Below, piece by piece: positions 1,795 to 49,034 of a DNA stretch of 62,723 nt; the stretch's first letter is position 1; each line of letters opens with the position of its first letter. Position numbers and translations under genes: made by a program. Origin of the DNA: a virus; IMG/VR virus record IMGVR_UViG_3300028920_000026, positions 128,001 through 190,723 of that record. One strand, given 5' to 3'. A model generated the notes under the pieces. That model was not told the DNA's origin, searched no databases, and worked only from the letters and a program-made list of their open reading frames with translations.

Positions 1795-1797
1795 TTG

Positions 1798-3312: not shown

Positions 3313-3313
3313 C

Positions 3314-3712
3314 TCAGTTCTTCTTGCCGTTGTCTCTCTTGTTGATCATGTCGTAAATATCGTTGTGTGAAGGTCCATCATCCTTCGCTTGTGCCTTTGC
3401 AATGAGTTCAGCGAGCTTGATCATCTGGTCATTCGCTCGACCCATGCGTTCAAGGAACGTTGCCATCGTCTTGCCGTGAACGGCATGCTCGGAGCTTTTT
3501 TCCTGGCAGATCTTCACCAGAGTCACGTAGTTTGAGTACGCATTTTGTCTATCAGTCAGAGCGTTCTCGTAGATCTCAAGCCACAACAATCGCTTCTTTT
3601 CATCAAGGTCTTCAATGTCCTTTAACAGGGCATTGAAGTTGCCGAGACGCTTCTGCACCTCGGCAGGAGAAAGCATGACGTCAGTCAAAGAACATGAATC
3701 TTGCGTTGTCAC
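3314..3712 (-). CDS. Hypothetical protein (132 aa)
   Basis: ORF in the same-strand gene train. No motif recognised. Confidence 0.35.
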   Translation of the reverse strand: MTTQDSCSLTDVMLSPAEVQKRLGNFNALLKDIEDLDEKKRLLWLEIYENALTDRQNAYSNYVTLVKICQEKSSEHAVHGKTMATFLERMGRANDQMIKLAELIAKAQAKDDGPSHNDIYDMINKRDNGKKN

Positions 3713-9076: not shown

Positions 9077-9079
9077 GGC

Positions 9080-13921: not shown

Positions 13922-13951
13922 AAAATCAATTGTACGGAACGTACGTACTGT

Positions 13952-14575: not shown

Positions 14576-14588
14576 CCCGTCCTCCCAT

Positions 14589-27102: not shown

Positions 27103-27340
27103 GGTTCCACATCCTCGTGTGTTTGTCTATCTGAATGGCAACCTGTTGTTCGAGCAGACGAAGGAATGTTCAGGCGACTATACACTCAATTCTGCGGCAG
27201 GTCCAAACATCGTAGATTGTTTGCGATTTCAGTTTCCGTTGAAAAAGACAGACCACATCCAGGTTGTCATGGGGGACATTAGGTTTTGTGCTGAGCTTCC
27301 AAGGAACTTTCAGCCACGCGAAAGGATAGACGATGGGTAG
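27092..27340 (+). CDS. Hypothetical protein (82 aa)
   Basis: ORF overlapping its neighbours by a few nt. Confidence 0.3.
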   Translation: MWGRVPHPRVFVYLNGNLLFEQTKECSGDYTLNSAAGPNIVDCLRFQFPLKKTDHIQVVMGDIRFCAELPRNFQPRERIDDG

Positions 27341-32296: not shown

Positions 32297-33304
32297 ATGG
32301 GAATCTTAGATAACAAATCGCGTGTGTTCGATGTCTTGTTGACGCAGCAGGGACGTCAGCAGGTCGTTGATGGAAAAATGCGCATCGAGTATGTGACGTT
32401 TACAGACGACGGCACCTTCTATAAGGCGGATATCGCGAGTGGATCGGCTGACGCAACGACGAGGTTGTACCTTGAGTGTTGTAACCTTCCGCAGGACATG
32501 ATTACGTTCGAGGCGAACGATGCAGGAAGGCTAAACTCATTCAAGAACCTTGGTGGCATTGAAGTAAGAGACGGTAGGATTGTTTCATCATCAATCACAG
32601 CAGCAAGCGGTTCTATTGTTACCGGCTCCAACGAGAACCTTACTGTGTTGACAGGATCAGTGTTTGCGTCAACAGCTGGATCGTTATTAGCATCATCAAT
32701 CGATAACTTCCGTCAGCTTCGCATCCTTGGAACACAAGGCAAACTTCTCGATAGCGAAAAGTTTGAGATGTCGCATAATCAGGTGACGTTTTCGATCACA
32801 GATGATAGACCAATCCCATCAAACATGCGAGAGTATAACCACCTTTCGCGTCTTGAAGGGTTGTTTAGTGACCCACGACTTTCGCGAGCAATCAACTACA
32901 AGTACCTTCCGCCGGTCAATAAGAATGTCGATAGAACCATCGATACGACCGATCCTGTAGCAATCCCAGATGAATTGAAGATTGCACATTTCAAACCATG
33001 GGGCCTCGTCGATCCTCTTGACATAGATGATGTTGTTGTTGAACTTGCGTACTATGAGCAGACGGGTTACATGCGTGAGGTCAAGTTTGATCCAACGTCT
33101 CGTAACAATACGATTGTAGGACAGTTCTTTGAACTGACAAATAATGAACTCAAAAAGCTCGATATCATTGATTTTGGTCGGCATCCGTGGCAGGACGATG
33201 ACGATCGAGTGAAATGGTTGCACGTCTTCTTTGTTGGAAAGGTCATGACCGACGACAACGGTGATGATACATTCATTCACATTTTTACTCTTGTCTTCAA
33301 GTGA
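32297..33304 (+). CDS. Hypothetical protein (335 aa)
   Basis: ORF only. It precedes the giant-ORF trio. Confidence 0.35.
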   Translation: MGILDNKSRVFDVLLTQQGRQQVVDGKMRIEYVTFTDDGTFYKADIASGSADATTRLYLECCNLPQDMITFEANDAGRLNSFKNLGGIEVRDGRIVSSSITAASGSIVTGSNENLTVLTGSVFASTAGSLLASSIDNFRQLRILGTQGKLLDSEKFEMSHNQVTFSITDDRPIPSNMREYNHLSRLEGLFSDPRLSRAINYKYLPPVNKNVDRTIDTTDPVAIPDELKIAHFKPWGLVDPLDIDDVVVELAYYEQTGYMREVKFDPTSRNNTIVGQFFELTNNELKKLDIIDFGRHPWQDDDDRVKWLHVFFVGKVMTDDNGDDTFIHIFTLVFK

Positions 33305-33310: not shown

Positions 33311-35827
33311 GTGTTCTATAGGGCGCCAAGAAGAAGAAACATTATCTCGATTGATGAGGATACGTTTGCCACGCTTGAACACATCTATGAGCAACCGTAC
33401 AACCCGTCGTATCCAGATACGAAGCACAAGTGGTATCGTTTCAAGTTTAGGTACAAGGTACCTGTACGCGATGTGTTCAAACACAACGTCTTTACAGTAA
33501 GGGTACGTGTCCTAACGAGGACCCTTGCGTTCAGGCAGATGGTCGCTCGTACGAGAGGACGCGTCCTAACACGCCAATTGATCAATAGGATTCGTTGGCA
33601 GATGACGTACGCAAAGAACCTACGATCTCAGCAGTCTCAATTTGTTGTAGCAGCGCGAAACAGCGACATAAGCGCACATGTGAACAATGATGCGTTGTCT
33701 GATCTTCGTCGCGGCGCACAACCAGAGGATATCAGGTCATTTCGCAGCAAGAGGCTCATAAATCGTCGTGTATCTGACATCCAAGAACGCGGTGAACGTC
33801 GTCCTGTGCTCGGTGGTTACGCCTGGCAGGACATAAATAACCGCGATCAAGTGACGTCAGATGACTTTACGAGCCAGTTCTTTTCGAAGATGCTCATGTA
33901 CGATATGATCATCAAGCGTGGTCTCGATCCTAGCTACGTTGCAAACATGAGTCACAGGACGATGTCTTCACGGCAGGCTGTTGGTGGCCTAGTAAGAAGG
34001 CAACGTTCTCGCGCGTTGACAACCGATTCTGAATACAACGCTCAGACACGTCTAATGTACGGGTATGTTTTCAACACAGACGATATGACAACTGTACGCC
34101 AGACTGATGAAGTGTCCGAACAAACAATGCAGATTCAGACGTTTGAAACAGACGTACAGACACACTACGAGATTCCAGTAAACATGACGCTGTACAGCGA
34201 AAAGATGAGGATCGGAAACGATGACAATACGACGCTTGTTGTAAAGTTTGACCTCATCAGCAACAGGACCGGCATGATAGTCGATGAACTGATTGCTCCG
34301 CTGGATGTTGAGAAACATGTTGAAAATTACAGAATTCCAAATGAACCGCCCGAGCTGCGTATCGCAAGAGCGGAAGACCTGTCAAAGTTCACACTTGAAA
34401 TAACACAACGTGATCCAAAGGCGACGCGAGTCAGAGTGTTGCAGAAAAAGATTCATAGAAATTCGCCTGTCATCAATGATTACGCAACGATCGGTGACTT
34501 TGAAATAGACAAGCGACTGAAGACAGTCAGGGTTCCTGTCATCACACCTGTAAACGATTACACGATCTACAGGGTTATTTCAATGGGAACAGCGGATCAG
34601 CTTAGCTACGAGTTTACGAACGTCGTGTTAAGACCGTCGAAAGTCTACCCAGTTAAGGCTGTATCACTTGTCACTGCGTTTGCTGAGGCTGGGATTTCGC
34701 TAGAGCTGAGGAATATTCCTACAGATGTTGTTTCGATCCAATTCCTCGTTAAGGACAAGACGATCCATGAGAGGAACTGGAGAAACGTTGGCCCTCCGTT
34801 TGTTGTTGATGATTCAATACGAAACCTTGATTTCATGACGGTGACAGATCCGACCGTGAAACATCAACATGTTTACGAGTATACTGTCAAGATGTTCTAC
34901 CTTGCAGGGTCGACAGAACTTGCGGGACATGCTCTGATCGAATTCGTCAAACCAGAATCAAATGTTGTAACAACTGAGATTTCGAACATTGAGATCGCTC
35001 AGGATGATATACCGAACGTAACGTTCCAAATGACGACAGAACTTCTTGATTCTAATCTTGACATTCTGACAGGTTTGATGAAGCTGCGTGAGATCGAAAA
35101 GTACTTCACTGATTCGATTGCAGACGAACGAGACCTGTTCAAACAGCTCGTTGCTCACAACGTCCAGCGCGTCAATATCACGACGGGTGAACGTGAGGAC
35201 TTTGGCGTGATCTCTGATACAATTTTCAATGATGATAGATCAAGGAGGTCAAACGCAGTCAAACCCTTGGACGTTAGAATGAAATACAGGTACGAGGTTT
35301 ATCCTCTATTGAGGTCGCCTGAATCACTTTTTGAGCGCCTGTCGAAGAACAAGGTTGATGAAGTAACGAAGAAGCCGTACAGGTACAATCCTGCAAAGTT
35401 TCTTCATCCTGTAACATTGAATCGTGGAATGATAGTGACGCCACTTGGCAGGAAGACGCTGTTTGCAAAGCAGGAGATGTCACACGGTATTGTTGGAAAC
35501 GTTGAAACTATTGACGTTGATTTTGAGAGGCCTCCTGCAACGATCAATAACATTGATGCTGGACGTATCGATTATGATACCGTAAGGGTCGATTGGCAGA
35601 TTGACGGTCAAATATCACAGATCGATCACTTCATTGTTATGAAGGAAACGCTTGGATCAAGGACGATTATTGGAAAGGTGCATTCGGAGTTTACGGACAA
35701 CAATGCGTACTTCCTTCACAGGATCACAGGTGATGATTCTGCGCAGTTTAGATACGTCATCGTTCCGGTGTTCAACGACTACACGATCGGCATGAAGCAG
35801 GAAAGTAACTACATCGAGGTACAATGA
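33311..35827 (+). CDS. Giant hypothetical protein 1 of 3 (838 aa), probably beta-rich/FN3-like and possibly a virion component
   Basis: Uninterrupted 2.5-kb ORF. The C-terminal region has Ig/FN3-like patterns (RVDWQIDGQISQIDHFIV...FRYVIVPVFNDYTIG). Its stop overlaps the next start (ATGA). Confidence 0.4.
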   Translation: MFYRAPRRRNIISIDEDTFATLEHIYEQPYNPSYPDTKHKWYRFKFRYKVPVRDVFKHNVFTVRVRVLTRTLAFRQMVARTRGRVLTRQLINRIRWQMTYAKNLRSQQSQFVVAARNSDISAHVNNDALSDLRRGAQPEDIRSFRSKRLINRRVSDIQERGERRPVLGGYAWQDINNRDQVTSDDFTSQFFSKMLMYDMIIKRGLDPSYVANMSHRTMSSRQAVGGLVRRQRSRALTTDSEYNAQTRLMYGYVFNTDDMTTVRQTDEVSEQTMQIQTFETDVQTHYEIPVNMTLYSEKMRIGNDDNTTLVVKFDLISNRTGMIVDELIAPLDVEKHVENYRIPNEPPELRIARAEDLSKFTLEITQRDPKATRVRVLQKKIHRNSPVINDYATIGDFEIDKRLKTVRVPVITPVNDYTIYRVISMGTADQLSYEFTNVVLRPSKVYPVKAVSLVTAFAEAGISLELRNIPTDVVSIQFLVKDKTIHERNWRNVGPPFVVDDSIRNLDFMTVTDPTVKHQHVYEYTVKMFYLAGSTELAGHALIEFVKPESNVVTTEISNIEIAQDDIPNVTFQMTTELLDSNLDILTGLMKLREIEKYFTDSIADERDLFKQLVAHNVQRVNITTGEREDFGVISDTIFNDDRSRRSNAVKPLDVRMKYRYEVYPLLRSPESLFERLSKNKVDEVTKKPYRYNPAKFLHPVTLNRGMIVTPLGRKTLFAKQEMSHGIVGNVETIDVDFERPPATINNIDAGRIDYDTVRVDWQIDGQISQIDHFIVMKETLGSRTIIGKVHSEFTDNNAYFLHRITGDDSAQFRYVIVPVFNDYTIGMKQESNYIEVQ

Positions 35828-38800
35828 GCAAGAAGAACACAAAGGGGTTCAGGCGCTCGCTTTCATCGTATACGCCTACGACGAAGATCAAGCTTGACTC
35901 GTCATACACGACGGGATACAACCTTGCGAACATCCAACCTCATGGCCTTGATCAAGTAACACTGCAAAACCTTGCGACTGGACTTCGTGATTACAAGCCG
36001 CCAGCAAAGGGAATCATGTCAACTGGCAGGCGCAAGAATCCGATTGCGTACTGGAGGTATGGTCGCAAAAACACCGTTACGCTCAGCCAGAAGAGGTTGA
36101 TGCCAAACGCCGCGCAGCGAGCGGCGGCAAGAAAATTTGACGCGATTGAGGACATCTCTGGCATCACACGTCAGCGTCCAGAGATTGTGATGGTAACAGA
36201 GTTCCATCCTGTGTTTGAAAAGGATAGGACAATCGAGGAGAACAAGTTCGCGTCGCAGTGGAACGTACGATCGTACGCAAAGTCCCAATTGACTGAACAT
36301 GGTCGGTTGATTGATGCGAGGTTCAATCTTGATTCATTGAACGTGCAGGGGATGCGTAGAACATTTAGAAGGTTATGGAAGCGAGCGAAGCGCAACAAGG
36401 CGCTTATGCAAAGGTTGAAGCGTCAGCGCAGGACGTTTGGTAACAAAATCAAGAGGCTTCGTACGACAGCGAACTTCATGATCCAGATGCTTCGTGTGAT
36501 GGAAAATACAAAGGAGCTGTTTGACCTTCGAGATCTTAGACATACCGCGGAATACAGCCAAAATCTTCACAGTGATTACAAGGAAGGTCAGGTCATTGTT
36601 CCTGATGACCAGTCACAGTACACACGTAACGAGTTGCTTGACTTTACAGAGAAGAACCTACCGGCAAATACATCGATTGCTCGAACGATGGAGCAGTACG
36701 GTTTTACGCGAACGGCGGTTGATTCAAAGTTTACGTCAACAAAGATCTGGTGCCAGTCAGTTCTTGAGTACAGGCACATGCTCGAGTACCATTCAGCGCA
36801 GCTATTGGATAGAGAATCATGGGCAAACAAGCGTGATCAACATCCGACTGCACTTGCCGCTCCGACGTATTTCAGACTCGATATAGCAAACAGAACTTCT
36901 GGCTTGACGCTCCCGACGATGCGTGCGATCGCGAATACCGAACCGTCGCTTGCAGACATTAATGCAGTGACAAATAATATCACACAAGCGTATCTGAAGA
37001 TGAACTGGGGCATTGCAAACAATACCACTCGTATTGCTGCATGGCTGTGGCTGTTTAGCAAGGAGTTTAGGTTCAGCAATGGCCTTGCGAAGCAGGAGGT
37101 CCGCGACGCGCTCAAGAACGGGTTCAGATACAATGTTTCAAACGGTCAAAATGCAGACGTGTTTGAAAGTGTCTTTGGGCTCAGAACGTATGCTATTGAC
37201 CAGGTTCCGGCAACGATTGGAAGGGACCTCTTTTCGTTGGCATACGAGCGACCTGATACCTCAACGGCGGTCATGAATTTTGAATCGAAGTACCTAGAAG
37301 GGACATCAGGAATTCTTTCACCGGGTAGTGAATACTATGTTGACGATGTGCTCGATAATTTTGGACAGACCGTCAGGCCTTCTAAATCGATTGATACGGC
37401 TGACAAAACAAACTATGAATTCGACACAACGAGGCTAAAGGCGTTTGTGAAGCGTCTTGATGAAACACGCACAGCGTTTGAAGCAGTATCAAATGGAATG
37501 AACTTTATGGCTCACTGGCGTGGTGACGATAGAAAGTCCGTCAGTTCGGAACGCGCCATTGCACATCCACCGACGTTCTATAGTTGGATGACGAACAAGT
37601 TCGTCAATATGTCGAAACACGAACTCGACAAGAAGTATGCAGAGGACAACATGACGGGCGTCCTTTCGCTTGCCGCGAAGGACGTAAGATTAAAGTCATC
37701 ATTGTTCATGTTGCTAATGCTAAGAATGTTTCGGGAGAAGCCTCAGACATCTCGCGCTCCCGAGGCGTCAAGAGGGTTGCAGATCGGAAGAGGCAACTTT
37801 ACGACGATTAGACAGGCAGCAAATGTTGTCGTCTCGAAGGTCAAGGCGAACGTTAAGAAGGTTCGTGTCATCAGGACGTCGAATATAAAGGCGTACACGT
37901 CTAAGACGTATACTATGTCATCGGCACAGCTTGCGACGATGTTGGCAAACGGCTCGTCACCGACGTGGGAAAAGATCGAGGAAATATTCAGGTCGATCTA
38001 CAACGCGATGGTTGATCGTGGCGAGGTGATCATTGGTGACAGGACTCGCTACGCTGGTGTCCTTGATACGATGATGATGATGATCGCATTTGAGGTGCTG
38101 ATATCAATCTTTGAAAAGTACTCAAAGCTGCGCGTAAATACCACGACACGCTACGCGCTCTTCCCAGGATACAGGACAGACAGGACAAGTTACACAACAT
38201 CATCTGATGTTATCTTTTTCGATAGCGTAAAGATAGATGCATCAGCGACACGACATGAATTCACTAAAGTCATATCGCGTTTGTTTGTCGAGAGACGTAG
38301 GATGATCATGGGATACGTCGCGCTCTATGCGTCGATGAATACCATCAGAGGAAACCTACAGGCATTTATAAACTACCTCGAATCGCGCAAGACAAAGGAA
38401 CACGTACAGAGGTTAATTGGATTTACGCCCGGATTTGAGGATCCTCGGTTTATGCGACTCATCTTCAACGAACAGCAGATGATGCTGTTTGCATCATCGA
38501 TCTATGATACGACGACGATGTTGAAGAAGTTTTACAGGTCACCTGACATCGATGCAGACGGCGATAGGGATGTTGACGATGCGTTTGATGTATTGGATGA
38601 AAGCATCGTTTCGCCGCACGTAAGAAGGTTGTTTATGGCGACGTTCGGCGATACGCAATTCGCCCAACGTGAAGGAAACAACAAGCAGATCATTACCATA
38701 GGTTTTCCACTTGGTTTCGTCGAAGCATTCAATCAATCGGTCAACACAGATAAGGCAACTGCAACGTCGTTTGATAAGAAACAAAATGATATCATCAAGC

Positions 38801-39978
38801 TGAACGTCTATAAAGTTGATATGCGACATCCAGAGGTGATATTCAAACCGCAGACGTTCTTGTTTGAGATGTCAAGGTTTCCAGTCCGTGTCGGCGAGGC
38901 ACACCTGAAGGTGAAACCAACAGCAACATTCGATGATGTTGTCAATGCAATTGCGACTCGAGACTTGCTGCAGGATCCACACCAGAACGGTGACACAATC
39001 TACTATGGCAATACGTCAGATGCTGACATCATTTCTGATGGACATCAACCATCGTCAGCTCAGGTCAAACAGGCGTTGGCAGACGAGACGTATGACTTTC
39101 TTGATGATGAAGAAAAGCATGAGATCCTGACAAACACAGCGCTCAGCTACATGCTTGAGATCTACATCAAAGCCTTGACAAATCTGAATGTGGGTGAGTA
39201 TGCATTTTTCATGCGTCCCGAGGACGCGGTGAGGAAGGTCAACGCTGAAGTTGTTGATGACATGGTTAGATACGTGTTGGATGACATCATTGAGGACAAG
39301 AGCAAGCGTAGTCCCAAGAGACCAACCAGCATCACTCGTCCGAAGAGGCCAAGAAAATCTAGCCATGGGAAGCGTAATGCTCGCCTGTTTACGTCTGGCA
39401 ACTGGAGTTCGACAAAATCACGAAGCGGTGTTGCTGGAACTGCAAAACGCGACATTTCACCACGTACAGAACAGATTATTGCCTCGAAGGCTGGAGACGC
39501 TCGTGACCTTGCACCTGCGTCAATCAATGAGCTTGTTGGGAAGGCAACGGTCAAAGACATCCCTAAACTCTTGACGGAACTTCGAGCAATGAATGCGATT
39601 GCGAATACGTACAGCCCAATGTCCGATCCAGAGGCTGCTGCTAGGTCATACTTCTCACCGAGGATGTATGACAGGGTGTTCAATATCGTCGTAGATCCAG
39701 ATGATTTTGAGATCGATATTGACAAGACCATGGCGACTCCATACGGCAAGGCCGTCATGGAAGAACTCATCAGGGACGGTGAGGTTGAAGACATCAGGTT
39801 GAAGCTTTATAGGCGCTCACGGTATAGAAGGATGATCAACAGGTACAGGCGCTACTACCTCGCCCGAGGAAGCTGGAAGCCGATCTATAGGCAGCGATCA
39901 CGTGACAAGGGTGAAGGTGATATCATCTTTGAAAAGTATTTTATCACCGTTGAGACGTATGGAGAGGACGTCATATGA
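35824..39978 (+). CDS. Giant hypothetical protein 2 of 3 (1384 aa)
   Basis: Uninterrupted 4.15-kb ORF. It lacks polymerase, ATPase or protease motifs. The C-terminus is basic (KRPRKSSHGKRNARLF) and carries RYRR repeats. It is coupled by ATGA overlaps on both sides. Confidence 0.4.
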   Translation: MSKKNTKGFRRSLSSYTPTTKIKLDSSYTTGYNLANIQPHGLDQVTLQNLATGLRDYKPPAKGIMSTGRRKNPIAYWRYGRKNTVTLSQKRLMPNAAQRAAARKFDAIEDISGITRQRPEIVMVTEFHPVFEKDRTIEENKFASQWNVRSYAKSQLTEHGRLIDARFNLDSLNVQGMRRTFRRLWKRAKRNKALMQRLKRQRRTFGNKIKRLRTTANFMIQMLRVMENTKELFDLRDLRHTAEYSQNLHSDYKEGQVIVPDDQSQYTRNELLDFTEKNLPANTSIARTMEQYGFTRTAVDSKFTSTKIWCQSVLEYRHMLEYHSAQLLDRESWANKRDQHPTALAAPTYFRLDIANRTSGLTLPTMRAIANTEPSLADINAVTNNITQAYLKMNWGIANNTTRIAAWLWLFSKEFRFSNGLAKQEVRDALKNGFRYNVSNGQNADVFESVFGLRTYAIDQVPATIGRDLFSLAYERPDTSTAVMNFESKYLEGTSGILSPGSEYYVDDVLDNFGQTVRPSKSIDTADKTNYEFDTTRLKAFVKRLDETRTAFEAVSNGMNFMAHWRGDDRKSVSSERAIAHPPTFYSWMTNKFVNMSKHELDKKYAEDNMTGVLSLAAKDVRLKSSLFMLLMLRMFREKPQTSRAPEASRGLQIGRGNFTTIRQAANVVVSKVKANVKKVRVIRTSNIKAYTSKTYTMSSAQLATMLANGSSPTWEKIEEIFRSIYNAMVDRGEVIIGDRTRYAGVLDTMMMMIAFEVLISIFEKYSKLRVNTTTRYALFPGYRTDRTSYTTSSDVIFFDSVKIDASATRHEFTKVISRLFVERRRMIMGYVALYASMNTIRGNLQAFINYLESRKTKEHVQRLIGFTPGFEDPRFMRLIFNEQQMMLFASSIYDTTTMLKKFYRSPDIDADGDRDVDDAFDVLDESIVSPHVRRLFMATFGDTQFAQREGNNKQIITIGFPLGFVEAFNQSVNTDKATATSFDKKQNDIIKLNVYKVDMRHPEVIFKPQTFLFEMSRFPVRVGEAHLKVKPTATFDDVVNAIATRDLLQDPHQNGDTIYYGNTSDADIISDGHQPSSAQVKQALADETYDFLDDEEKHEILTNTALSYMLEIYIKALTNLNVGEYAFFMRPEDAVRKVNAEVVDDMVRYVLDDIIEDKSKRSPKRPTSITRPKRPRKSSHGKRNARLFTSGNWSSTKSRSGVAGTAKRDISPRTEQIIASKAGDARDLAPASINELVGKATVKDIPKLLTELRAMNAIANTYSPMSDPEAAARSYFSPRMYDRVFNIVVDPDDFEIDIDKTMATPYGKAVMEELIRDGEVEDIRLKLYRRSRYRRMINRYRRYYLARGSWKPIYRQRSRDKGEGDIIFEKYFITVETYGEDVI

Positions 39979-41924
39979 GCATCTCGCAACCATCGAAGGA
40001 AGTTTACGTTGTAGAGGTACCTGACTGCAAGGACTTTGAAGCATCGTTTACGTACAACTACTTTGAGCCTTCAGAAAGTGTCAGTGAATTTGCAGGTATT
40101 CCGTTGAAATACAGACAGAGGCCGACAGAGCAACGCGATGCGAGCTTTCAGAACTTTGCAGACACACGTGTTCCTCGTTGGGTTGCGCTGCGATGGTCGC
40201 TACCACGTTTACGCGTAAGAGGACTGTTTAGGATTGAGGAAGAACAGAGGGGCGATCAGTTTGACGTGGCGCCGTACAAGGACCTGATCAGAGGGAACCT
40301 TGACAAGATTCTATCAGAAGAGGCGTTTGCGTCTGAGAACTTTGTGTCGCTCGTGTTTCAGGACGGGCAAATGGACGAAACTATGTTCTTTGCTGCATCG
40401 GGTTCGTACGTCCAGCACACGATCGATGAGCCAGATGACAGGACAGACAGCACTCGTCGCGCGGCACTTCGGGCTTCGATGATAGCCCCAGCCGATGTGA
40501 ATCCAACGTTCATCAACGAGGCACTGGCACAACCTACCCTCGGTGAGGGCATCAAGTACCACAAGAACGTAAGCGACCTTAGACAAAACAGACGTACAGG
40601 TATCATTACCAGGCTTCTAAGGAAGGTCACAGCAGGTGCTCAGATCAATACACGCCTACTGTCTACGATGCTAAAGCAGGCGAACATAAGCCCATCGACT
40701 GATGCTGGTGATTTTGACGTCCTTCGTGATCTTGCTGATTCGTATGAGTCTACAGCAAATGCCCATGCAACAGATGATGTAGACGATACTAATTTTAAGC
40801 TGTACCTTCCTTACGTAGACGGCCGCGTCGACGAGTCGGGTTCTGGCAGGACACCACAAAGGTTTGCAAAGCTTGTTGGATACATCGTTGACAAGAACGA
40901 GGTGTTGAGTGATGGTACGTTCGTTGAAAAGGATCCGATCATCATTGAGAACCCTCGTGTCAAGGAGACGATTGACTTTGGTATCAGGTACAACGCAATG
41001 TACACGTACCAGGTCAGGGTAATCTACATGTTGACGGTTCCATCAATTGATGAAGAGACTGGTGACGTTGCAATATTGAAGATTCTTGTGAGCTCGCGTC
41101 CTACACACCTTGAGTACGTCCCAACGACAGAGGAGATCACACCGCCCCCGCCGACAGACATCAACTTTACGTGGGACTATAGACGACTCAATAGAGAAGG
41201 CAAACCTGGGAGCCTAATGATACACTGGACGTTTCCGCCAAACCCCCAGCGCGACATCAAGAGGTTCCAGGTATATAGGAGGAAGTCGGTCGAACACGCA
41301 TTCGAACTTGTCAAGATGTACGACTTTGACGATTCTCTGCAGCAGATTCCGTACAAAGAAGAGTATGATGAGCAGCAGATCGAGTACATTGACTCTCCGG
41401 CGACGTGGTGGTACGATGATGATTTTGTGAAGACATCACGTTTCATCTATACCGTCTGTTCGATGGACGCTCATGGGTACGTATCGGACTACGGTGCGCA
41501 GTTTGAGATTTGGTTTGATCTGTTTGAAAACAGCATCAAGAAGAGACTCATCAGTCACATGGGTGCTCCGGCAGCGTATCCAAACCTGTACATTGAGCAG
41601 GACCTTTTCGTTGATACGATCAGGGTGTCAGGTGAAAAGTCAAAGACGATGGCAGTGTACTTCAATCCAGAATACTACAGGCTGTACGACGACCACGACA
41701 AGAACATTCCTGTGTTTACTACGACGCAGGACGGTGGAAGTTATAGGTTGCAGTTCATCAACATGGACAACCAGAAGGATCAGGTTTTGACGATTTCAGT
41801 GGACGACATCGTCAAGAGGACGAAGGCCGAATACGTTGATGAAACCATCGATTCAAAGGCACTAGATGCTGCCGCCGCCACCCGTGCGGCGAGAGCCTGT
41901 AACCTACGTAAGACATACAGCTGA
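39975..41924 (+). CDS. Giant hypothetical protein 3 of 3 (649 aa)
   Basis: Uninterrupted ORF. ITPPPPTDINFTWDYRRLNREGKPGSLMIHWTFPPNPQRDIKRFQVYRRKS resembles an FN3-like module. Confidence 0.4.
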   Translation: MSISQPSKEVYVVEVPDCKDFEASFTYNYFEPSESVSEFAGIPLKYRQRPTEQRDASFQNFADTRVPRWVALRWSLPRLRVRGLFRIEEEQRGDQFDVAPYKDLIRGNLDKILSEEAFASENFVSLVFQDGQMDETMFFAASGSYVQHTIDEPDDRTDSTRRAALRASMIAPADVNPTFINEALAQPTLGEGIKYHKNVSDLRQNRRTGIITRLLRKVTAGAQINTRLLSTMLKQANISPSTDAGDFDVLRDLADSYESTANAHATDDVDDTNFKLYLPYVDGRVDESGSGRTPQRFAKLVGYIVDKNEVLSDGTFVEKDPIIIENPRVKETIDFGIRYNAMYTYQVRVIYMLTVPSIDEETGDVAILKILVSSRPTHLEYVPTTEEITPPPPTDINFTWDYRRLNREGKPGSLMIHWTFPPNPQRDIKRFQVYRRKSVEHAFELVKMYDFDDSLQQIPYKEEYDEQQIEYIDSPATWWYDDDFVKTSRFIYTVCSMDAHGYVSDYGAQFEIWFDLFENSIKKRLISHMGAPAAYPNLYIEQDLFVDTIRVSGEKSKTMAVYFNPEYYRLYDDHDKNIPVFTTTQDGGSYRLQFINMDNQKDQVLTISVDDIVKRTKAEYVDETIDSKALDAAAATRAARACNLRKTYS

Positions 41925-42357: not shown

Positions 42358-42613
42358 GATATGGAAAATAAACCACAGAAGATTGATCAACTTGCGCGTC
42401 ACAGGTGGACGATTCACGTTGATAGTGAAATTACCATTGACGGCGGAAAGCATCGGCGAAAGAACAGGAATCATTTTGCAAAAGAGTAAGGGTCAATTTG
42501 TGCAATTTGAGATTGGGTTTGCGTTTGTTGAGCAAAAATGCAGATTGGGTAAGGGGATCCTTTACAATTCAAGGAAGTAGTATGACAAAGTTTTGCGCAA
42601 CTACGAAAGAGTC

Positions 42614-43297
42614 ATGATCGTCTATAGTCTGACATCCAGAACCTCCGGAAAGTCGTACGTCGGAAAGACGATCAGGGCGCTTGACCAGCGTTGGCGTGAA
42701 CACGTTTACCATGCCATGAACGATTCTACCGAGATGCCTCTGTATGCCGCGATCAGGAAGTACGGGTCAGACGACTTTACCAAGGAGGTCCTCGCCGAGG
42801 CCGCGTCGGAAGAAGAGCTGAACGAGCTCGAGGTCAGGAATATCGCGGAACTCGGGACGTTCGTCAACGGTTACAACGCGACCCGAGGAGGCGACGGGAT
42901 AAGTGGGTACAGACACACCTCTGAGACAAAGAAGAGGTTTTCTGAGATGAGGAAGGGGTCAGGAAACCACAACTGGGGTGGGTTGAGCGAAGAACATGGG
43001 AGAAATATGGCTCGAGCAAAGGTTGGGATAGGCACGGGTCCAAGGCCACATGCTATGGGATGGCATCACACAAATGAAGCAAAAGAAAAGATCAGTAAAA
43101 ATTCGTCTTCTCAGCCGCGGACCCCAATTTCTGTACGCCAGCTAGATAGTATTGGTCAGGTTCTAGCAACGTATCCTTCTATGAGTCTAGCATCGCAAGC
43201 AGTTGGTGGCCGAGGTCGTGGGATCAAGGCGTGTTGTGAAGGTAGACAAGGGACTTATCTTGGATACCGTTGGGAGTTCGCAAATCCTAAAAGGTGA
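42614..43297 (+). CDS. GIY-YIG homing endonuclease with NUMOD3 DNA-binding repeats
   Basis: MIVYSLTSRTSGKSYVGKT...RWREH...NGYNATRGGDG is a GIY-YIG domain of the I-TevI/Seg type. It is followed by HTSETKKRFSEMRKG... and HTNEAKEKISKNS (NUMOD3-like repeats). Confidence 0.7.
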   Translation: MIVYSLTSRTSGKSYVGKTIRALDQRWREHVYHAMNDSTEMPLYAAIRKYGSDDFTKEVLAEAASEEELNELEVRNIAELGTFVNGYNATRGGDGISGYRHTSETKKRFSEMRKGSGNHNWGGLSEEHGRNMARAKVGIGTGPRPHAMGWHHTNEAKEKISKNSSSQPRTPISVRQLDSIGQVLATYPSMSLASQAVGGRGRGIKACCEGRQGTYLGYRWEFANPKR

Positions 43298-44019
43298 ATA
43301 ATATGGGTTGGTTAGATCATTCGACCAATAATCTGATTCTCGACGCAGTTCTTACAGACATCGGTCGTCAGTTTCTCGCGAGGAACGATGGATCGTTTTC
43401 GATCCACAAGTTTGCCTTGGGCGACGATGAGGTCGACTATGGCATCATCCAGAAGTACGGTCGCACCGTGGGCAAGGAGAAGATCGAAAAGAACACTCCT
43501 GTTTTTGAGGCGCTGACCAACCAGGCGCACGCACTCAAGTACAAGCTGGTGTCTGTCAGCAACCCAAATCTGCTTCGACTCCCCAGCTTCACGCTGTCGG
43601 GCGACTCGAACGTCGACGGGTTGAACTCGGCCGTTACGCTAGGTAGGACGACACAGAAGACGGCGTCCGTCACGATCGAACAGACGATCAAGAATGAAAC
43701 GCAGATCGATGTCGAGCTTCGCGATCAGACGTTTATCATCGAGCTTCCGAACCTGTTCGTTGAGATCCTGAACGATACACCTGAAAACATCGACGAACAG
43801 CAACGTGCGATGTACATCGTACCCAGAGCCCCTGCCGAAAACAGCTTTGGTGGTTCAACTGTACAGTTTACTCTCTCTGTGAAATCGCTTACGGATGCGA
43901 CGTTTACGACGTACGGAACGACCGCAAACAAGAACAAGATCAATGCCTTCCTGAAAGTCACAGGCGTCCAATCAGGAGCCGTCCAAGATATTTCATTGGT
44001 GATCGACAAGACGCTGTAA
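43294..44019 (+). CDS. Hypothetical protein (241 aa), possibly structural
   Basis: An ATGA overlap joins it to the GIY-YIG gene. The product is beta-rich. No motif recognised. Confidence 0.35.
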   Translation: MNNMGWLDHSTNNLILDAVLTDIGRQFLARNDGSFSIHKFALGDDEVDYGIIQKYGRTVGKEKIEKNTPVFEALTNQAHALKYKLVSVSNPNLLRLPSFTLSGDSNVDGLNSAVTLGRTTQKTASVTIEQTIKNETQIDVELRDQTFIIELPNLFVEILNDTPENIDEQQRAMYIVPRAPAENSFGGSTVQFTLSVKSLTDATFTTYGTTANKNKINAFLKVTGVQSGAVQDISLVIDKTL

Positions 44020-44214: not shown

Positions 44215-45456
44215 ATGGCAACCTTTAAAGAAATCCTCCCGTCAGACATCAAGACCGCTAGGTCGTTTCTTAACCAACTGATCGATGTTCTGCAAGAGGA
44301 CATTAGCGCGTCTGTTTCACGTAGGAAGTACCAAGTCTTCGTCACCGGTGGCGTCGGTCCGGGCGTCACCAGCTCTCTGTACCAGACAGTCTATGATCAG
44401 GACTTCACGCTCCAGACGGCAAACCCGATCTTTGATGTGACGTTCGGATTACGTCCTGATGGCGATACAGTAGCAACGTCTCAGACAGGCACGGACGCAG
44501 CAGGCAAGGAGCTCTTTCCATCGTCATCGCTCATGATGCGAGAGAAGATGGACATCTATAGGCAGTACGCCAAGGCGCTGCTCGGTGATTCGACCGCTGT
44601 CTTTACGAGTCCGTTTGATAGCAACGATGTTGGTGACCAGATTGATGTTCCATTGATGATCTCCTTCAAGCGACTGTTTGCAAGGGATCAGATCAAGCGT
44701 GAAACGTTCGCGATGAAGTTCTATCAGACGGCATCAGCCGTTGGTCCAAACGCCCAAGAGATCCCACCAGATGATGGTGATACGCAGGTCGGATATATTA
44801 CAAACCTAAACAGGACGTCGATCTCTGGATCTGCGATCTATACGGACGTCGGATCGTCAACGAACAAGCTTACGACGTTTGGAGGCCAGGTCGGTAACAT
44901 TGTCGATTCTGCAAATACGTCACGTAACGTCGGCCTGATGTTCTACGACAGGGGTATCGCGGTCTTCGATCTTGAGAAGATCACTTCTGCGAGTCAGTTC
45001 ATGTCAGGTGTCATCGACGGGATGACGCCTTCGGGCCTGCAGGTGCTCGGCGGTGCAAGCACCCCGACGTCTGGAACCGCAAAGTTTGTTCCTGACTTTG
45101 TCGTCTCAGCGAGCATCGACAATGTCATCGATCACGTGTGTTCAGCTAGGTTCCAGTCGGGTTCAAACACCGCGCTTACGTTTCAGAACGTTACAAACAT
45201 CAACTCGACGCTCATCTTCTGCAGGACGTCGGCAGACGAGTTCAACTATTCGGCGAATCCAACGTTCGTTGACAACGATAACAGGATTGTTGTCATCGAT
45301 CAAGGCCAAGAAGATACACAGCAGTCGTTCACCTTTGTGACGTCTGTCGGTCTGTATGACGCAAACGACAACCTGCTCGCTGTTGCAAAGCTTTCGCGAC
45401 CCGTTGAAAAGTCGCCCGAGAGAGACTTTACCCTAAGAGTTCGACTTGACTTTTAG
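44215..45456 (+). CDS. Hypothetical structural protein (413 aa) sharing a C-terminal domain with the 845-aa protein
   Basis: The C-terminus, FVTSVGLYDANDNLLAVAKLSRPVEKSPERDFTLRVRLDF, is clearly homologous to the C-terminus of the 46497-49034 ORF, FVYITGINFHDDNMNVVMKAQLAQPITKRFRDKLAFKVKIDF. Confidence 0.4.
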   Translation: MATFKEILPSDIKTARSFLNQLIDVLQEDISASVSRRKYQVFVTGGVGPGVTSSLYQTVYDQDFTLQTANPIFDVTFGLRPDGDTVATSQTGTDAAGKELFPSSSLMMREKMDIYRQYAKALLGDSTAVFTSPFDSNDVGDQIDVPLMISFKRLFARDQIKRETFAMKFYQTASAVGPNAQEIPPDDGDTQVGYITNLNRTSISGSAIYTDVGSSTNKLTTFGGQVGNIVDSANTSRNVGLMFYDRGIAVFDLEKITSASQFMSGVIDGMTPSGLQVLGGASTPTSGTAKFVPDFVVSASIDNVIDHVCSARFQSGSNTALTFQNVTNINSTLIFCRTSADEFNYSANPTFVDNDNRIVVIDQGQEDTQQSFTFVTSVGLYDANDNLLAVAKLSRPVEKSPERDFTLRVRLDF

Positions 45457-46496: not shown

Positions 46497-49034
46497 ATGG
46501 CAATCGTCACGCTGACAAAGGATGACTTCGACTCATATTCGGTGCTGACGACTCCGACGCGCTACTTTAGGTCGAGTTCGCTTGGCGGTGTGACAGGGTC
46601 AGTCTACGTCTATGCGAGGCACTCTGACGTTGAGAAGGAACTTGCACCGCTCGATGCGTTTAGGGACGCGACACACGATGACTCTGACATAGCGGCGTTG
46701 GTGAAGCAGATCCAAACGTTCGGTCGCTTTATCATGAAGAACCCAACGTATCCTGAGCAGTGGAGACCTGCGTTCAACGCGGCGCTCGAAACGTACCTTA
46801 CAAAGGTGAACGAGCTGGGTACGTCAGCGCGCAAGTTCAAGGCAATGGAGGTAAACAGGTTCGTGCCTGGGACAAGGTGGTCTCAGAACATGAGCAGGAA
46901 GCTAACTGTCAAGAACACGCTTAACAAGTACTACAGGGTTCTCTATCCGAGCGCGCAGTGGGCGTTTACGAACTATAACAGCCTGAACTTCTTTTCATCA
47001 TCCCAAGTTCCGAATTCGTCGGCGCTCATCTACCCGATGAGGTCAGCTCCTGCTGAACATACCGGATACGCGACAGGATCGTACATTCCGAGTGGCGCAT
47101 TTTCGCTTGATTTCTACATTAATCCGAGGTACAAGTCGTTCGAGGGAGACGCCGGTCCTGTCATCGTCCCTGGGACGATCATGCATGTTCCTGATGTGTT
47201 TGCGGTCTCGATGATTACGGGTTCGCTCCGTGATGAGCGTAGCCGTGTCGATTCCTGGCGCCTTATGCTACAGGTAAAACACTCGACAAATATCAATCCG
47301 TCGATGGCGCAGACGAACGTCGGTGGAAATTATCCGTATGACATGATCTTCATGTCTGATAACAACGTGTTTCGTCACAATAGGTGGTACCATGTCGTCG
47401 TCAGGTGGGGGACTGATGCTGTGAACAATGGTACTGGTTCGTTTAATATTGACGGTGTCGATAGGGGTAAGTTTGTCATTCCGTCGGGAACGATCGCACT
47501 CGAACTTCCGGCGTCTGGTTGGCAGGAACCGGCAGCACTGTTTATCGGCAACTACTTTGAACCTTTTGATGGCGCGATCGACAATCAGGCATTGACGTTC
47601 TTTGGTACCGACACCGCGCTTCGAGAGGGGTTGGACGAGCTCGATGATGTCCTGAATCAGAACGAACCGAATGACTATCAGATGAGGTTTCCGCTCGTTG
47701 CTGAGATGCATGATGTTGCGATCAAGCGTCACTATATGGACGATGTTGATATTGCGGCGTCCGCGTCTGTTGGTCCGATGGCGATCGATTCGGGAAGCAA
47801 GGGAATCGCGTTCTATCTTCCACCGTTCTTCGTTCAGGAATCTTCATTTAGACAGTACGTTACTGACCGTGGAGGGATTCTACAGACACCGTTCTTTGAG
47901 ATCGACGGTACGACAGACGATCCGTTCAACGTGGCGATGGCATTTGGTGTCAACGGCCATTACATGAACCTTGAGAACTATGTTCGAGACTTTGCATCAG
48001 ACAACAACCCAAGGCTTCATCAGTTGTCGGGAACGGCGATCTCGTACACGACTCAGGCACGTGAGGCCAACGAGTTTCTATACGATGATCCGTATGTTCG
48101 AAAGCGAAATTTGACAATCCTGCCGTGCGACGATGGAAACTTCAGGCCGAGCTACGAGCTTCTCATGTCAGAGAGCCTGAATACGAAGTTTGTAAATGAC
48201 CTTGGATACGAGGATCACAGCCTTGTAAGCCTAGACAACCTGCTGCTTGATCAGTCGCTTATATTCGGTACAGATTTTGATTCGATCAATGGAGATGATT
48301 CAAAGTCGGATGATAAGGTTGAGGCGTTCGTAAACGAGCAGATCGGTTTTACGCCTGAACAACCTGGTATCTCTCCGGGAGCTGCGTTTAACACATACAT
48401 CAGGGCGATCAACGATTCGATCGCGTCTGGCAACTATGGAGCAGGCGTCCAGGCAGGTGCTCCGCTGACGATCTTCAACAGGACACGTGATTCCAGCAGC
48501 AATCAGGTCACGTTCTTCGACTTCAGCAACCTGTTCTACGGCGATCGCATCGTGCCAGGGACGTTTACGATCAAGGATCCGTCTATCACGGGTTCTGGCG
48601 GACACGTTTCGCTGACGTTGAAGGATGATGGTTTCGGAAACCTCTACAGGGCAGACTGCCAGACGAGCGCATCAACGTGGTGCAACGTCGGTAACATCTA
48701 CTACAACGAGGGCATTGTCGTCGTCAAGAATCCGAGTGCGTACTTCTTTGGCAAAGAAGAGTACGAGATGTCGTTCAAGGGTGAACGTCGAGTCCACGTT
48801 TTGAACGTGAACGTTGTAGTTGGAAAGAACGAATTCAACTCATCATCCAATCCAAACTGGATGCCTGTCTCTGCGTCAGCATCAACAACAGACCCAGACC
48901 AGGACTTTGTCTATATCACAGGTATCAACTTCCATGATGACAACATGAACGTTGTTATGAAGGCACAGCTAGCACAACCGATCACGAAGAGGTTTAGGGA
49001 TAAGCTTGCGTTCAAGGTGAAAATCGATTTTTAG
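46497..49034 (+). CDS. Large hypothetical structural protein (845 aa)
   Basis: Long ORF. Its C-terminal about 40 aa are homologous to the C-terminus of the 44215-45456 ORF. Confidence 0.4.
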   Translation: MAIVTLTKDDFDSYSVLTTPTRYFRSSSLGGVTGSVYVYARHSDVEKELAPLDAFRDATHDDSDIAALVKQIQTFGRFIMKNPTYPEQWRPAFNAALETYLTKVNELGTSARKFKAMEVNRFVPGTRWSQNMSRKLTVKNTLNKYYRVLYPSAQWAFTNYNSLNFFSSSQVPNSSALIYPMRSAPAEHTGYATGSYIPSGAFSLDFYINPRYKSFEGDAGPVIVPGTIMHVPDVFAVSMITGSLRDERSRVDSWRLMLQVKHSTNINPSMAQTNVGGNYPYDMIFMSDNNVFRHNRWYHVVVRWGTDAVNNGTGSFNIDGVDRGKFVIPSGTIALELPASGWQEPAALFIGNYFEPFDGAIDNQALTFFGTDTALREGLDELDDVLNQNEPNDYQMRFPLVAEMHDVAIKRHYMDDVDIAASASVGPMAIDSGSKGIAFYLPPFFVQESSFRQYVTDRGGILQTPFFEIDGTTDDPFNVAMAFGVNGHYMNLENYVRDFASDNNPRLHQLSGTAISYTTQAREANEFLYDDPYVRKRNLTILPCDDGNFRPSYELLMSESLNTKFVNDLGYEDHSLVSLDNLLLDQSLIFGTDFDSINGDDSKSDDKVEAFVNEQIGFTPEQPGISPGAAFNTYIRAINDSIASGNYGAGVQAGAPLTIFNRTRDSSSNQVTFFDFSNLFYGDRIVPGTFTIKDPSITGSGGHVSLTLKDDGFGNLYRADCQTSASTWCNVGNIYYNEGIVVVKNPSAYFFGKEEYEMSFKGERRVHVLNVNVVVGKNEFNSSSNPNWMPVSASASTTDPDQDFVYITGINFHDDNMNVVMKAQLAQPITKRFRDKLAFKVKIDF

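What the first reader, a model, noticed from the sequence alone, without database searches (positions are those of the whole stretch)
33311..41924. Three translationally coupled giant ORFs (838 + 1384 + 649 aa; 8.6 kb) with no recognisable enzymatic motifs
The three ORFs are joined by ATGA overlaps at 35824 and 39975, so they form one translational unit taking about 14% of the window. I found no polymerase (no NADFDGD, no DxxSLYPS), ATPase, protease or glycosidase signatures. Instead there are FN3/Ig-like beta segments (for example ITPPPPTDINFTWDY...MIHWTFPPNP; RVDWQIDGQISQIDHFIV) and a highly basic RYRR-rich C-terminus on the middle protein. They lie between phoH and the structural-looking genes. 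Candidate roles are giant ejected or internal virion proteins, an adhesin or fibre complex, or an entirely new module. They could also be glycosylation substrates for the upstream locus.
Basis: seen in the sequence. Interest (0 to 1): 0.6.

Follow-up and report, generated by a model that had tools for sequence, protein, structure and literature searches.

The report
Extra baseplate genes of huge phage
The three giant genes are real and match no known protein family, and in related uncultured huge T4-like phages they sit inside the tail-baseplate gene cluster, so they are most likely extra structural parts of an enlarged baseplate rather than enzymes or injected proteins.

Summary
ORFs 33311-35827, 35824-39978 and 39975-41924 exist with ATGA overlaps. 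They have no Pfam, PHROG or PDB sequence match, even with family profiles. The coupled unit has four genes, because g0 (32297-33304) is joined just as tightly. The window is part of a 331-kb T4-like phage with Gp23 capsid protein, gp21-type protease and T4-type TerL. The ORF3 family is large: 314 IMG/VR loci and 1305 50%-identity clusters. ORF3 folds confidently into a novel N-terminal domain, two tandem FN3-like domains and a C-terminal beta domain. ORF2 is mostly helical and poorly modelled.

The main evidence is gene context. In 25 related loci one strand carries hub protein, gp25, gp6-like wedge, two further wedge-cluster proteins, p317, p1398, g0, ORF1, ORF2, ORF3, g4 (g5-g6 follow g4 in the ORF3-anchored loci). 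In the window's lineage this cluster is split, and gp25 and gp6-like lie just left of the window on the other strand. Cultured relatives (Flavobacterium phage immuto, Microcystis phage Mel-JY01) have the same cluster without these genes.

Best reading (about 0.62): a clade-specific expansion of the peripheral baseplate. No fold match or proteomics supports this. The basic RYRR tail is lineage-specific. Moderate interest.

The parts
32297..33304 (+). g0 (335 aa), the first gene of the tightly coupled four-gene unit. Its N-terminal roughly 42 aa resemble the N-terminus of g4.
   Evidence: Conserved directly upstream of ORF1 in 66 loci. The junction is 15 nt or less, or overlapping, in 56 of 62 loci. 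hhalign g0 against g4 gives 88.5% over aa 1-42. No Pfam or PHROG hit.
33311..35827 (+). ORF1 (838 aa, GTG start), a family with no database match. The N-terminus is basic (only moderately so across the family). An internal tandem repeat (about aa 350-420 and 451-523) and an FN3-like C-terminal region are inferred from sequence only.
   Evidence: Seven homologues in the word-indexed protein search and 70 loci by jackhmmer. No Pfam, PHROG or PDB hit. fn3 hits 2 of 44 homologues. Internal repeat at hhalign 88.6%.
35824..39978 (+). ORF2 (1384 aa), a family with no database match. It is predominantly alpha-helical, with short conserved beta motifs (VYKxD...IVFKPxxFLFELSRFPxR and FDRVFNxxxDPDxFEID). 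The basic N-terminus, the basic linker (about aa 1150-1215) and the RYRR insert (about aa 1325-1355) are lineage-specific.
   Evidence: The AF2 model of aa 185-1384 has mean pLDDT 47 and is mostly helix. No Pfam, PHROG or PDB hit. Window pI 9.6 against family median 5.8. The DADGD motif is not conserved.
39975..41924 (+). ORF3 (649 aa), the best conserved of the three. Domains: N-terminal alpha/beta domain aa 1-290 (39975-40844), FN3-like domain aa 298-383 (40866-41123), FN3 domain aa 390-520 (41142-41534), C-terminal beta domain aa 549-607 (41619-41795), terminal helix.
43294..44019 (+). g4 (241 aa), a highly conserved protein that follows ORF3 in relatives. It has homologues in the baseplate-to-fibre clusters of cultured myoviruses.
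   Evidence: Present in 83 loci, 55-82% identical to the window copy. tblastn and HMM hits to immuto gp107, the Mel-JY01 211-aa protein and RM378 p129. No PDB or PHROG hit.
44215..45456 (+). g5 (413 aa), highly conserved. Its C-terminal roughly 100-aa domain is shared with g6 and with several paralogues in cultured relatives.
   Evidence: No PDB or PHROG hit.
46497..49034 (+). g6 (845 aa), a paralogue of g5 at its C-terminus with a concanavalin-A-like lectin domain. Its length varies (770-1734 aa), which makes it the likeliest receptor-binding protein of the cluster.
   Evidence: Laminin_G_3 at E 8e-5, also recorded for the L006 homologue. hhalign g5 against g6 gives 100%. Length range.
42593..43297 (+). 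GIY-YIG/NUMOD3 homing endonuclease inserted between ORF3 and g4. It is not part of the module.
   Evidence: It is absent at this position in most relatives.
178..4490 (-). Hub-side start of the phage's canonical baseplate cluster, on the opposite strand. It holds a homologue of immuto gp118 (3681-4490), p504 (1798-3312) and p538 (178-1794). The cluster continues left of the window into gp25, a gp6-like wedge protein, the c_370 and c_1300 homologues, p317 and p1398.
   Evidence: L172 is 100% identical to the window over 11,617 nt. It carries GPW_gp25. Its gp6-like protein matches the immuto/Mel gp6-like profile at E 1e-111 and hits PHROG 'baseplate wedge subunit' families.

Best explanation
g0, ORF1, ORF2 and ORF3 most likely encode structural proteins of the tail baseplate of a T4-like huge myovirus. 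They look like a clade-specific addition to the outer (peripheral) baseplate, made in fixed proportions from one translationally coupled message.

**Shown**
- The phage has a T4-type head and packaging set.
- It has an ordinary gp25 and gp6-like wedge core, encoded elsewhere in the genome.
- In many related genomes the four genes lie, on one strand and without interruption, between the wedge-core genes and the conserved g4 (with g5-g6 following g4 in the ORF3-anchored loci).
- Smaller cultured relatives have the same cluster but lack p317, p1398, g0 and ORF1-3.
- ORF3 carries two tandem FN3-like domains of the sort seen in phage tail-tip and baseplate proteins.

**Inferred**
- The proteins assemble onto the wedge, at the position that gp8-gp11 occupy in T4.
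- ORF2 would be a large helical scaffold. ORF1 and ORF3 would be beta-sandwich-rich outer parts.
- Together they would carry or position g4 and the lectin-bearing g5/g6 proteins for host-surface contact.
- In the window's lineage an inversion or insertion of about 28 kb (glycosyltransferases, GroEL-like, ClpP-like, helicase, PhoH) has separated this half of the cluster from the wedge-core half.
For: - **T4-like phage.** TerL is 38% identical to Flavobacterium phage immuto TerL. Peptidase_S77 and the Gp23 capsid protein lie downstream of TerL on the same 331-kb contig.
- **Canonical wedge core is in the same genome.** GPW_gp25 and a 612-aa gp6-like protein are present (E 1e-111 to immuto/Mel/LR756508 gp6-like; PHROG 'baseplate wedge subunit'), followed by homologues of the next two cluster proteins. 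The DNA carrying them is 100% identical to the window over the overlap.
- **Contiguous order in relatives.** In 25 of 78 loci, baseplate core genes (gp6-like and/or the c_1300 homologue) and ORF1/ORF2 lie on the same strand. In the loci annotated in full (L176, L192, L193, L236, L248 and others) the order is p504 - gp25 - gp6-like - c_370 - c_1300 - p317 - p1398-like - g0 - ORF1 - ORF2 - ORF3, followed by g4 where the locus extends that far.
- **Cultured relatives lack the block.** They carry gp25 - gp6-like - c_370 - c_1300 - (0 or 1 gene) - g4 - g5 paralogues - annotated tail fibre and tailspikes.
- **Order, size and junctions are conserved** across about 80 loci.
- **ORF3 structure.** Tandem FN3-like domains. 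Many of the named BFVD matches are tail proteins, gpJ or tail fibres.
- **Upstream neighbours.** In L084 and L067 the gene upstream of g0 hits PHROG tail-fibre families.
- **No catalytic family or motif** was found with single sequences or profiles.
Against: - No sequence or fold similarity to any known baseplate, fibre or tail protein beyond the generic FN3 domains. hhalign of the four family profiles against every baseplate-cluster family of the cultured relatives gave nothing.
- ORF2 could not be modelled (pLDDT 47), and ORF1 was not modelled at all.
- There is no cultured member of the clade, so no virion proteomics or imaging exists.
- Phage structural clusters can also hold assembly chaperones or non-virion proteins, so position alone does not prove virion incorporation.
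- g4 and g5 have no assigned function themselves.
Confidence: 0.62

Rival explanations
1. The proteins are internal head or ejected proteins, like the T7 gp14-gp15-gp16 core or phiKZ inner-body proteins. They would be packaged with the DNA and delivered into the host, with the basic stretches binding DNA.
For: Three consecutive large proteins of about the sizes of T7 gp15 and gp16. ORF2 is mainly helical. The window copies of ORF1 and ORF2 have strongly basic stretches.
Against: The basic stretches are not conserved: family median pI is 5.8 for ORF2, and the RYRR insert is absent in P0004. ORF3 has surface-type FN3 domains; for ORF1 the FN3 evidence is weak. The genes lie inside the baseplate cluster in 25 loci, far from the head module with the gp21-type protease and Gp23. 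There is no PHROG hit to any internal-virion or ejection family.
Confidence: 0.08
2. ORF2 is the tail tape-measure protein, and ORF1 and ORF3 are tail-tip proteins assembled with it.
For: ORF2 is long (1384 aa), mostly helical, and narrowly conserved in length at about 1200-1470 aa in most loci. At about 1.5 Angstrom per residue (my own knowledge) this would fit a tail of roughly 200 nm, which is plausible for a 331-kb phage.
Against: It lies downstream of the wedge genes rather than between the tube or chaperone genes and the hub. It has many invariant aromatic and beta motifs and several globular-looking segments rather than a repetitive helix. No PHROG or Pfam tape-measure hit appears in 37 homologues. 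The cultured relatives lack the gene yet have contractile tails.
Confidence: 0.07
3. The proteins are not virion components. They would be assembly factors or scaffolds for the baseplate or fibres, or host-interaction proteins that merely travel with the cluster.
For: No homology links them to any virion protein. In the window they are co-oriented with PhoH, with no predicted terminator between PhoH and ORF3.
Against: Chaperones are normally small, whereas these total about 3200 aa with FN3 domains. The PhoH adjacency is lineage-specific. Their size conservation across more than 70 loci is typical of parts that must fit a fixed geometry.
Confidence: 0.13
4. The proteins are virion structural proteins located elsewhere on the particle, such as the neck, collar or whiskers, sheath decoration, or capsid-vertex fibres, rather than on the baseplate.
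For: FN3 and Ig-like domains also decorate capsids and necks, for example T4 Hoc (my own knowledge). Nothing ties the folds specifically to a baseplate.
Against: They are embedded between the wedge core and g4-g6 in the contiguous arrangement. They are not near the head or neck genes, which follow TerL.
Confidence: 0.1

Closest known systems
T4 peripheral baseplate proteins gp7-gp8-gp9-gp10-gp11 (wedge periphery that carries the fibres; Taylor et al. 2016, cited from my own knowledge)
   Same: The gene position matches: downstream of the gp25 and gp6-type wedge core, with the variable-length, lectin-bearing g6 as the last gene of the cluster. The proteins are large and multi-domain, with no enzymatic motifs, and are tightly co-expressed. 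Neighbouring genes share domains (g0 with g4, g5 with g6), much as T4 gp10, gp11 and gp12 share a fold.
   Different: No detectable sequence similarity, and no fold match was obtained. The three genes are absent from cultured relatives that already have a complete cluster. ORF2 appears largely helical. Any analogy to particular T4 proteins rests on position only.
Baseplate cluster of Flavobacterium phage immuto (NC_055915, gp113-gp105) and Microcystis phage Mel-JY01 (PP395634)
   Same: These are the closest cultured relatives by TerL. They share gp25, the gp6-like protein, c_370, c_1300, g4 and the g5 paralogues in the same order.
   Different: They lack p317, p1398, g0 and ORF1-3 entirely. 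Those six genes, about 4900 aa in total, are an insertion specific to the uncultured huge-phage clade.
FN3-bearing tail-tip proteins of siphophages (lambda gpJ, the T1 tail-tip protein in PDB entry 9l9p, a T5 tail-tip chain in entry 7zn2)
   Different: Only the FN3 pair matches. The N-terminal 290-aa domain and the C-terminal beta domain of ORF3 have no counterpart there. The hub-forming domains of gpJ are absent.
T7 internal core proteins gp14, gp15 and gp16
   Same: Three consecutive large genes, with the middle or last about 1300 aa and helical.
   Different: There is no sequence match. The phage is a T4-like myovirus. The block lies in a baseplate cluster, and ORF3 carries FN3 domains (ORF1 probably does too).

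Membership tests
Conserved contractile-tail wedge core (gp25/GPW, gp6/Baseplate_J-like, gp7/gp53-like) | Sequence or profile similarity to the GPW_gp25 or gp6-type wedge families | tested here: not met
   No Pfam or PHROG hit for ORF1-3 or g0. hhalign against the gp6-like, c_370 and c_1300 families of the cultured relatives gave probability below 1%. The genome encodes separate canonical gp25 and gp6-like proteins.
Baseplate or tail structural module (membership by genomic location) | Encoded inside an uninterrupted, co-oriented cluster of recognised baseplate genes | tested here: met
   In 25 related loci the baseplate core genes and ORF1/ORF2 are on one strand, and in the loci annotated in full the order gp25 - gp6-like - ... 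- g0 - ORF1 - ORF2 - ORF3 is uninterrupted. In the window itself the cluster is split.
Baseplate or tail structural module | Physical presence in the virion baseplate | not testable with these tools
   There is no cultured member. This needs virion proteomics or cryo-EM.
FN3-domain phage tail proteins | A fibronectin type III fold | tested here: met
Tape-measure proteins | Long helical protein encoded between the tube or chaperone genes and the hub, with a match to tape-measure families | tested here: not met
   ORF2 is helical, but it is encoded after the wedge genes. None of 37 homologues hit a tape-measure family.
Known tail-fibre or tailspike families | Profile match to fibre or spike families, or fibrous repeats | tested here: not met
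   No Pfam, PHROG or PDB sequence hits. tblastn against 50,697 phage records found no match for ORF2 or ORF3; ORF1 was covered only by the nucleotide megablast of the whole block.
Virion or two-barrel RNA polymerases (N4 gp50, crAss gp66, YonO type) | A conserved DxDGD-type metal-binding motif | tested here: not met
   The DADGD in the window ORF2 is replaced by NVDQS and DVPGN in P0004 and P0005. There are no polymerase family hits.
T7-type internal core or ejection proteins | Profile match to the gp14, gp15 or gp16 families, in a podovirus context next to head genes | tested here: not met
   No PHROG hits. The context is a T4-like myovirus.

The most novel reading that the evidence does not exclude
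A widespread, entirely uncultured clade of T4-like huge phages (at least 1305 50%-identity clusters of ORF3) has inserted into its baseplate gene cluster a six-gene set of about 4900 aa: p317, p1398, g0 and ORF1-3. These proteins are not homologous to any described baseplate component. ORF2 (1384 aa) and the N-terminal domain of ORF3 may represent new folds. If so, these phages carry a baseplate periphery that differs architecturally from T4's.
Probability: 0.45. Interest if true: 0.5.

Novelty: new variant of a known kind. Interest (0 to 1): 0.36.

Why it matters
- **Annotation.** Huge phages are known almost only from metagenomes, and most of their large genes are unannotated. Placing four conserved unmatched genes (about 10 kb in all) in the baseplate cluster annotates several hundred IMG/VR loci (314 for ORF3) and more than a thousand protein clusters.
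- **Evolution.** It shows how a T4-type baseplate cluster grows by insertion of new genes as genomes get larger.
- **Next experiments.** It names concrete targets (ORF2, and the N-terminal domain of ORF3) for structure determination. It also points to g6 as the more likely receptor-binding protein for host prediction.
- **Limits.** No new mechanism is involved, and the functional assignment rests on gene context.

Tried and rejected
- **RNA polymerase idea.** DADGD in ORF2 looked like a metal-binding motif, but it is not conserved.
- **ORF1-3 as diverged gp6, gp7 or gp10 equivalents.** I inferred this from synteny with immuto and Mel-JY01. I rejected it because hhalign found no similarity and the phage has its own canonical gp25, gp6-like, c_370 and c_1300 genes just outside the window.
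- **Capsid or portal role.** Rejected because Gp23 and the gp21-type protease lie downstream of TerL.
- **T4 late promoter TATAAATA.** No occurrences. Sigma-70 promoter-like and terminator-like sites are at chance level.
- **AF2 of ORF2 (aa 185-1384, 5 sequences).** pLDDT 47, so I did not use it for fold search.
- **Search for gp6-like genes on the same IMG/VR contigs.** Uninformative, because the 80 returned rows were all close immuto relatives.
- **GTDB genomes.** One mis-binned MAG contig only, so no host clue.
- **Literature.** Searches for immuto, Mel-JY01, LR756508 and jumbo-phage FN3 baseplates gave nothing relevant.
- **g4 and g5 profiles.** No match in PDB or PHROGs.

Full report

Yes. 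The ORF list gives 33311-35827 (838 aa, GTG start), 35824-39978 (1384 aa) and 39975-41924 (649 aa), all on the + strand. The sequence shows CAATGAGC at 35822 and CATATGAGC at 39973. Each start ATG therefore overlaps the previous TGA stop.

These are real genes. ORF2 has homologues at 24-56% identity over its full length, ORF1 at 35-65% and ORF3 at 28-69%. In about 80 IMG/VR and metagenome loci the same genes recur in the same order and with nearly the same lengths.

The tight junctions are conserved too. ORF1->ORF2 overlaps or is within 15 nt in 62 of 69 loci, and ORF2->ORF3 in 68 of 74. The upstream gene g0 (window 32297-33304, 335 aa) is joined to ORF1 just as tightly in 56 of 62 loci. ORF3 is normally followed by a true intergenic gap.

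**2. Absence of known signatures**

- Pfam, PHROGs and PDB sequences gave nothing significant for the three proteins.
- Profiles of 59-64 family members against PDB sequences gave nothing.
- Scanning 37 ORF2, 44 ORF1 and 59 ORF3 homologues one by one gave no recurring family. The only exception was Pfam fn3, in 2 of 44 ORF1 homologues.
- No record among 50,697 phage genomes matches the block at the DNA level or encodes a detectable relative of ORF2 or ORF3. The clade has no cultured member.
- A DADGD in ORF2 that could be taken for a polymerase metal site is not conserved.
- ORF2 is markedly basic here (pI 9.6; RYRR insert) but not across the family (median pI 5.8). The insert is missing or different in the distant homologues.

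**3. What kind of genome is this?**

The window belongs to a 331-kb contig.

- Its large terminase is of the T4 type, 38% identical to that of Flavobacterium phage immuto and 41% to that of Microcystis phage Mel-JY01.
- Downstream of TerL on the same contig lie a T4 gp21-type prohead protease (Peptidase_S77) and a Gp23-family major capsid protein. The head module is accounted for, so ORF1-3 are not capsid or portal proteins.
- The rest of the window carries replication and recombination genes: helicase, PhoH-PIN, RuvC, primase and a fused SbcCD. It also carries a GroEL-like gene, a ClpP-like protease, a minus-strand glycosyltransferase island and several homing endonucleases.

**4. Structure**

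ORF3 was modelled with its 59-sequence alignment and gave a usable model (pLDDT 78, pTM 0.70). Its parts are:

- an alpha/beta N-terminal domain (aa 1-290);
- two consecutive beta-sandwiches (aa 298-383 and 390-520);
- a small C-terminal beta domain;
- a terminal helix.

All it shows is a predominantly helical protein with a few beta elements, so I did not use it for fold comparison.

It contains an internal roughly 70-aa repeat (hhalign 88.6%) and FN3-like sequence patterns.

**5. Context: the decisive evidence**

The genes after ORF3 are g4 (43294-44019), g5 (44215-45456) and g6 (46497-49034).

- They are conserved in all loci.
- g5 and g6 share a C-terminal domain, and g0 and g4 share an N-terminal motif.
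- g6 carries a concanavalin-A-like lectin domain.

g4 and g5 have homologues in immuto, Mel-JY01, Rhodothermus phage RM378 and the 484-kb uncultured phage LR756508. In immuto, Mel-JY01 and LR756508 they follow directly after a cluster annotated or recognisable as baseplate. The order there is gp25-like, gp6-like wedge protein, a roughly 370-aa protein, a roughly 1300-aa protein, zero or one further gene, then g4 and the g5 paralogues. In immuto, annotated tail fibre and tailspikes come next.

My first idea was that ORF1-3 are diverged counterparts of those wedge proteins. That idea failed for two reasons.

- Profile-profile comparison shows no similarity.
- The phage has its own canonical set just left of the window on the minus strand. 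A contig 100% identical to the window over 11,617 nt continues from window ORFs 3681-4490, 1798-3312 and 178-1794 into:
  - GPW_gp25;
  - a 612-aa gp6-like protein (E 1e-111 to the immuto/Mel/LR756508 family; PHROG 'baseplate wedge subunit');
  - homologues of the roughly 370-aa and roughly 1300-aa proteins;
  - a 317-aa protein and a protein of at least 1398 aa.

The link came from more distant members of the ORF3 family. In them the gene just upstream of g0 is not PhoH. It is a protein of 800-930 aa that is homologous to that protein of at least 1398 aa.

I fetched loci around this family and annotated them. In 25 of 78 loci, baseplate core genes (gp6-like and/or the c_1300 homologue) and ORF1/ORF2 lie on one strand within the locus. 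In the loci annotated in full, that strand carries, without interruption:

p504 - gp25 - gp6-like - c_370 homologue - c_1300 homologue - p317 - p1398-like - g0 - ORF1 - ORF2 - ORF3, followed by g4 where the locus extends that far.

In contigs close to the window (for example the pairs L181/L011, L185/L048 and L200/L010) the two halves are tens of kilobases apart, about 30-50 kb, on opposite strands. That is the arrangement in the window.

So the contiguous arrangement is widespread in the clade. In the window's lineage the cluster is split between p1398 and g0, with about 28 kb of other genes between the halves.

Compared with the cultured relatives, the huge-phage clade has six extra genes between the c_1300 homologue and g4: p317, p1398, g0, ORF1, ORF2 and ORF3, about 4900 aa in total.

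**6. Most likely function**

The best-supported reading is that g0 and ORF1-3 are structural proteins of an enlarged baseplate periphery. They occupy the genomic position that gp8-gp11 hold in T4, between the conserved wedge core and the fibre-bearing parts (T4 architecture from my own knowledge of Taylor et al. 2016).

- *Shown:* the genomic placement, the conserved coupling and sizes, the FN3 content of ORF3, and the lack of any catalytic signature.
- *Inferred:* virion incorporation; ORF2 acting as a helical scaffold; ORF1 and ORF3 forming an FN3-rich outer layer; and a connection to g4 and to the lectin-bearing g5/g6 proteins.

I give this 0.62.

Rivals:
- non-virion assembly factors (0.13);
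- structural proteins elsewhere on the particle (0.10);
- internal or ejected proteins (0.08), weakened by the non-conserved basic regions and the FN3 domains;
- ORF2 as tape measure (0.07), weakened by its position after the wedge genes, its many invariant non-repetitive motifs, and its absence from the cultured relatives.

**7. Comparison with what is known, and novelty**

The module works like, and sits where, peripheral baseplate proteins do. It is not a member of any described family: every sequence-based membership test failed, and the only fold match is the generic FN3 domain.

The family is large. ORF3 has 314 relatives in IMG/VR and 1305 clusters at 50% identity in the 1.84-billion-protein library, 725 of them at E <= 1e-30. 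It occurs on contigs up to 369 kb. Only one GTDB genome holds it, a 108-kb contig in a MAG labelled Halobacteriovorax, which is probably mis-binned.

I rate it a new variant of a known kind: a T4-type baseplate cluster expanded by genes with no database match.

**8. Verdict**

Interest is moderate (0.36). The result is a useful annotation and an example of how a baseplate gene cluster grows in huge phages. It reveals no new mechanism, and the assignment rests on gene context, with no fold match beyond FN3 and no virion proteomics.

Noticed in passing
window 42593-43297, 45507-46478, 49048-50055 (+), and 52421-52828: Homing-endonuclease genes (GIY-YIG/NUMOD3, and TnsA-like/HNH types) are inserted between the conserved baseplate-cluster genes ORF3/g4, g5/g6 and after g6. 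Most relatives lack them at these positions.
   Followed up: partly
window 178-4490 (-) and locus L172: The left end of the window is the hub-side start of the phage's canonical baseplate cluster on the opposite strand. It continues outside the window into gp25, a gp6-like protein, two further wedge-cluster proteins, p317 and a protein of at least 1398 aa. The cluster is split from g0-g6 by about 28 kb.
   Followed up: yes
window 32297-33304 and 43294-44019: g0 and g4 share an N-terminal motif of about 42 aa (hhalign 88.5%). This may be a common docking segment.
   Followed up: partly
window 44215-45456 and 46497-49034; L087, L088, L089, L090: g5 and g6 share a C-terminal domain of about 100 aa. 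The same domain ends one to five proteins in immuto, Mel-JY01, LR756508 and RM378 (five in Mel-JY01, one in RM378). g4 and g5 are much better conserved (55-82% identity) than ORF1-3 (about 20-40%), yet they have no PDB or PHROG match.
   Followed up: partly
window 4752-19203 (-): An island of several glycosyltransferase genes, with a UDP-glucose dehydrogenase-like gene in the same region (a PD-(D/E)XK-type exonuclease also lies inside the span at 7244-8245), sits between the two halves of the baseplate cluster. I did not test whether it modifies virion proteins or DNA.
   Followed up: no
window 55285-58455 (+): SbcD-like (N-terminal) and SbcC-like (C-terminal) nuclease subunits are fused into a single 1056-aa ORF. 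The fusion is also seen in relatives, at about 1030-1060 aa.
   Followed up: no
window 27333-27938 (+) and L091 14949-15602: The phage encodes a ClpP-like protease in the window as well as a T4 gp21-type prohead protease (Peptidase_S77) downstream of TerL, outside the window.
   Followed up: no
window 23685-25178 (+): A GroEL-like chaperonin ORF (PHROG 5725, E 1e-15 over part of the protein).
   Followed up: no
window 38536-38550 (ORF2 aa 905-909): A DADGD motif resembles the metal-binding motif of two-barrel RNA polymerases, but it is not conserved in distant homologues.
   Followed up: yes
L006 897-1103, L002 1690-1920: Relatives carry a small histone-H1-like (Pfam Hc1) gene upstream of PhoH (after ClpP in L006, after the helicase in L002). 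I did not check whether the window ORF 30081-30473 is its counterpart.
   Followed up: no
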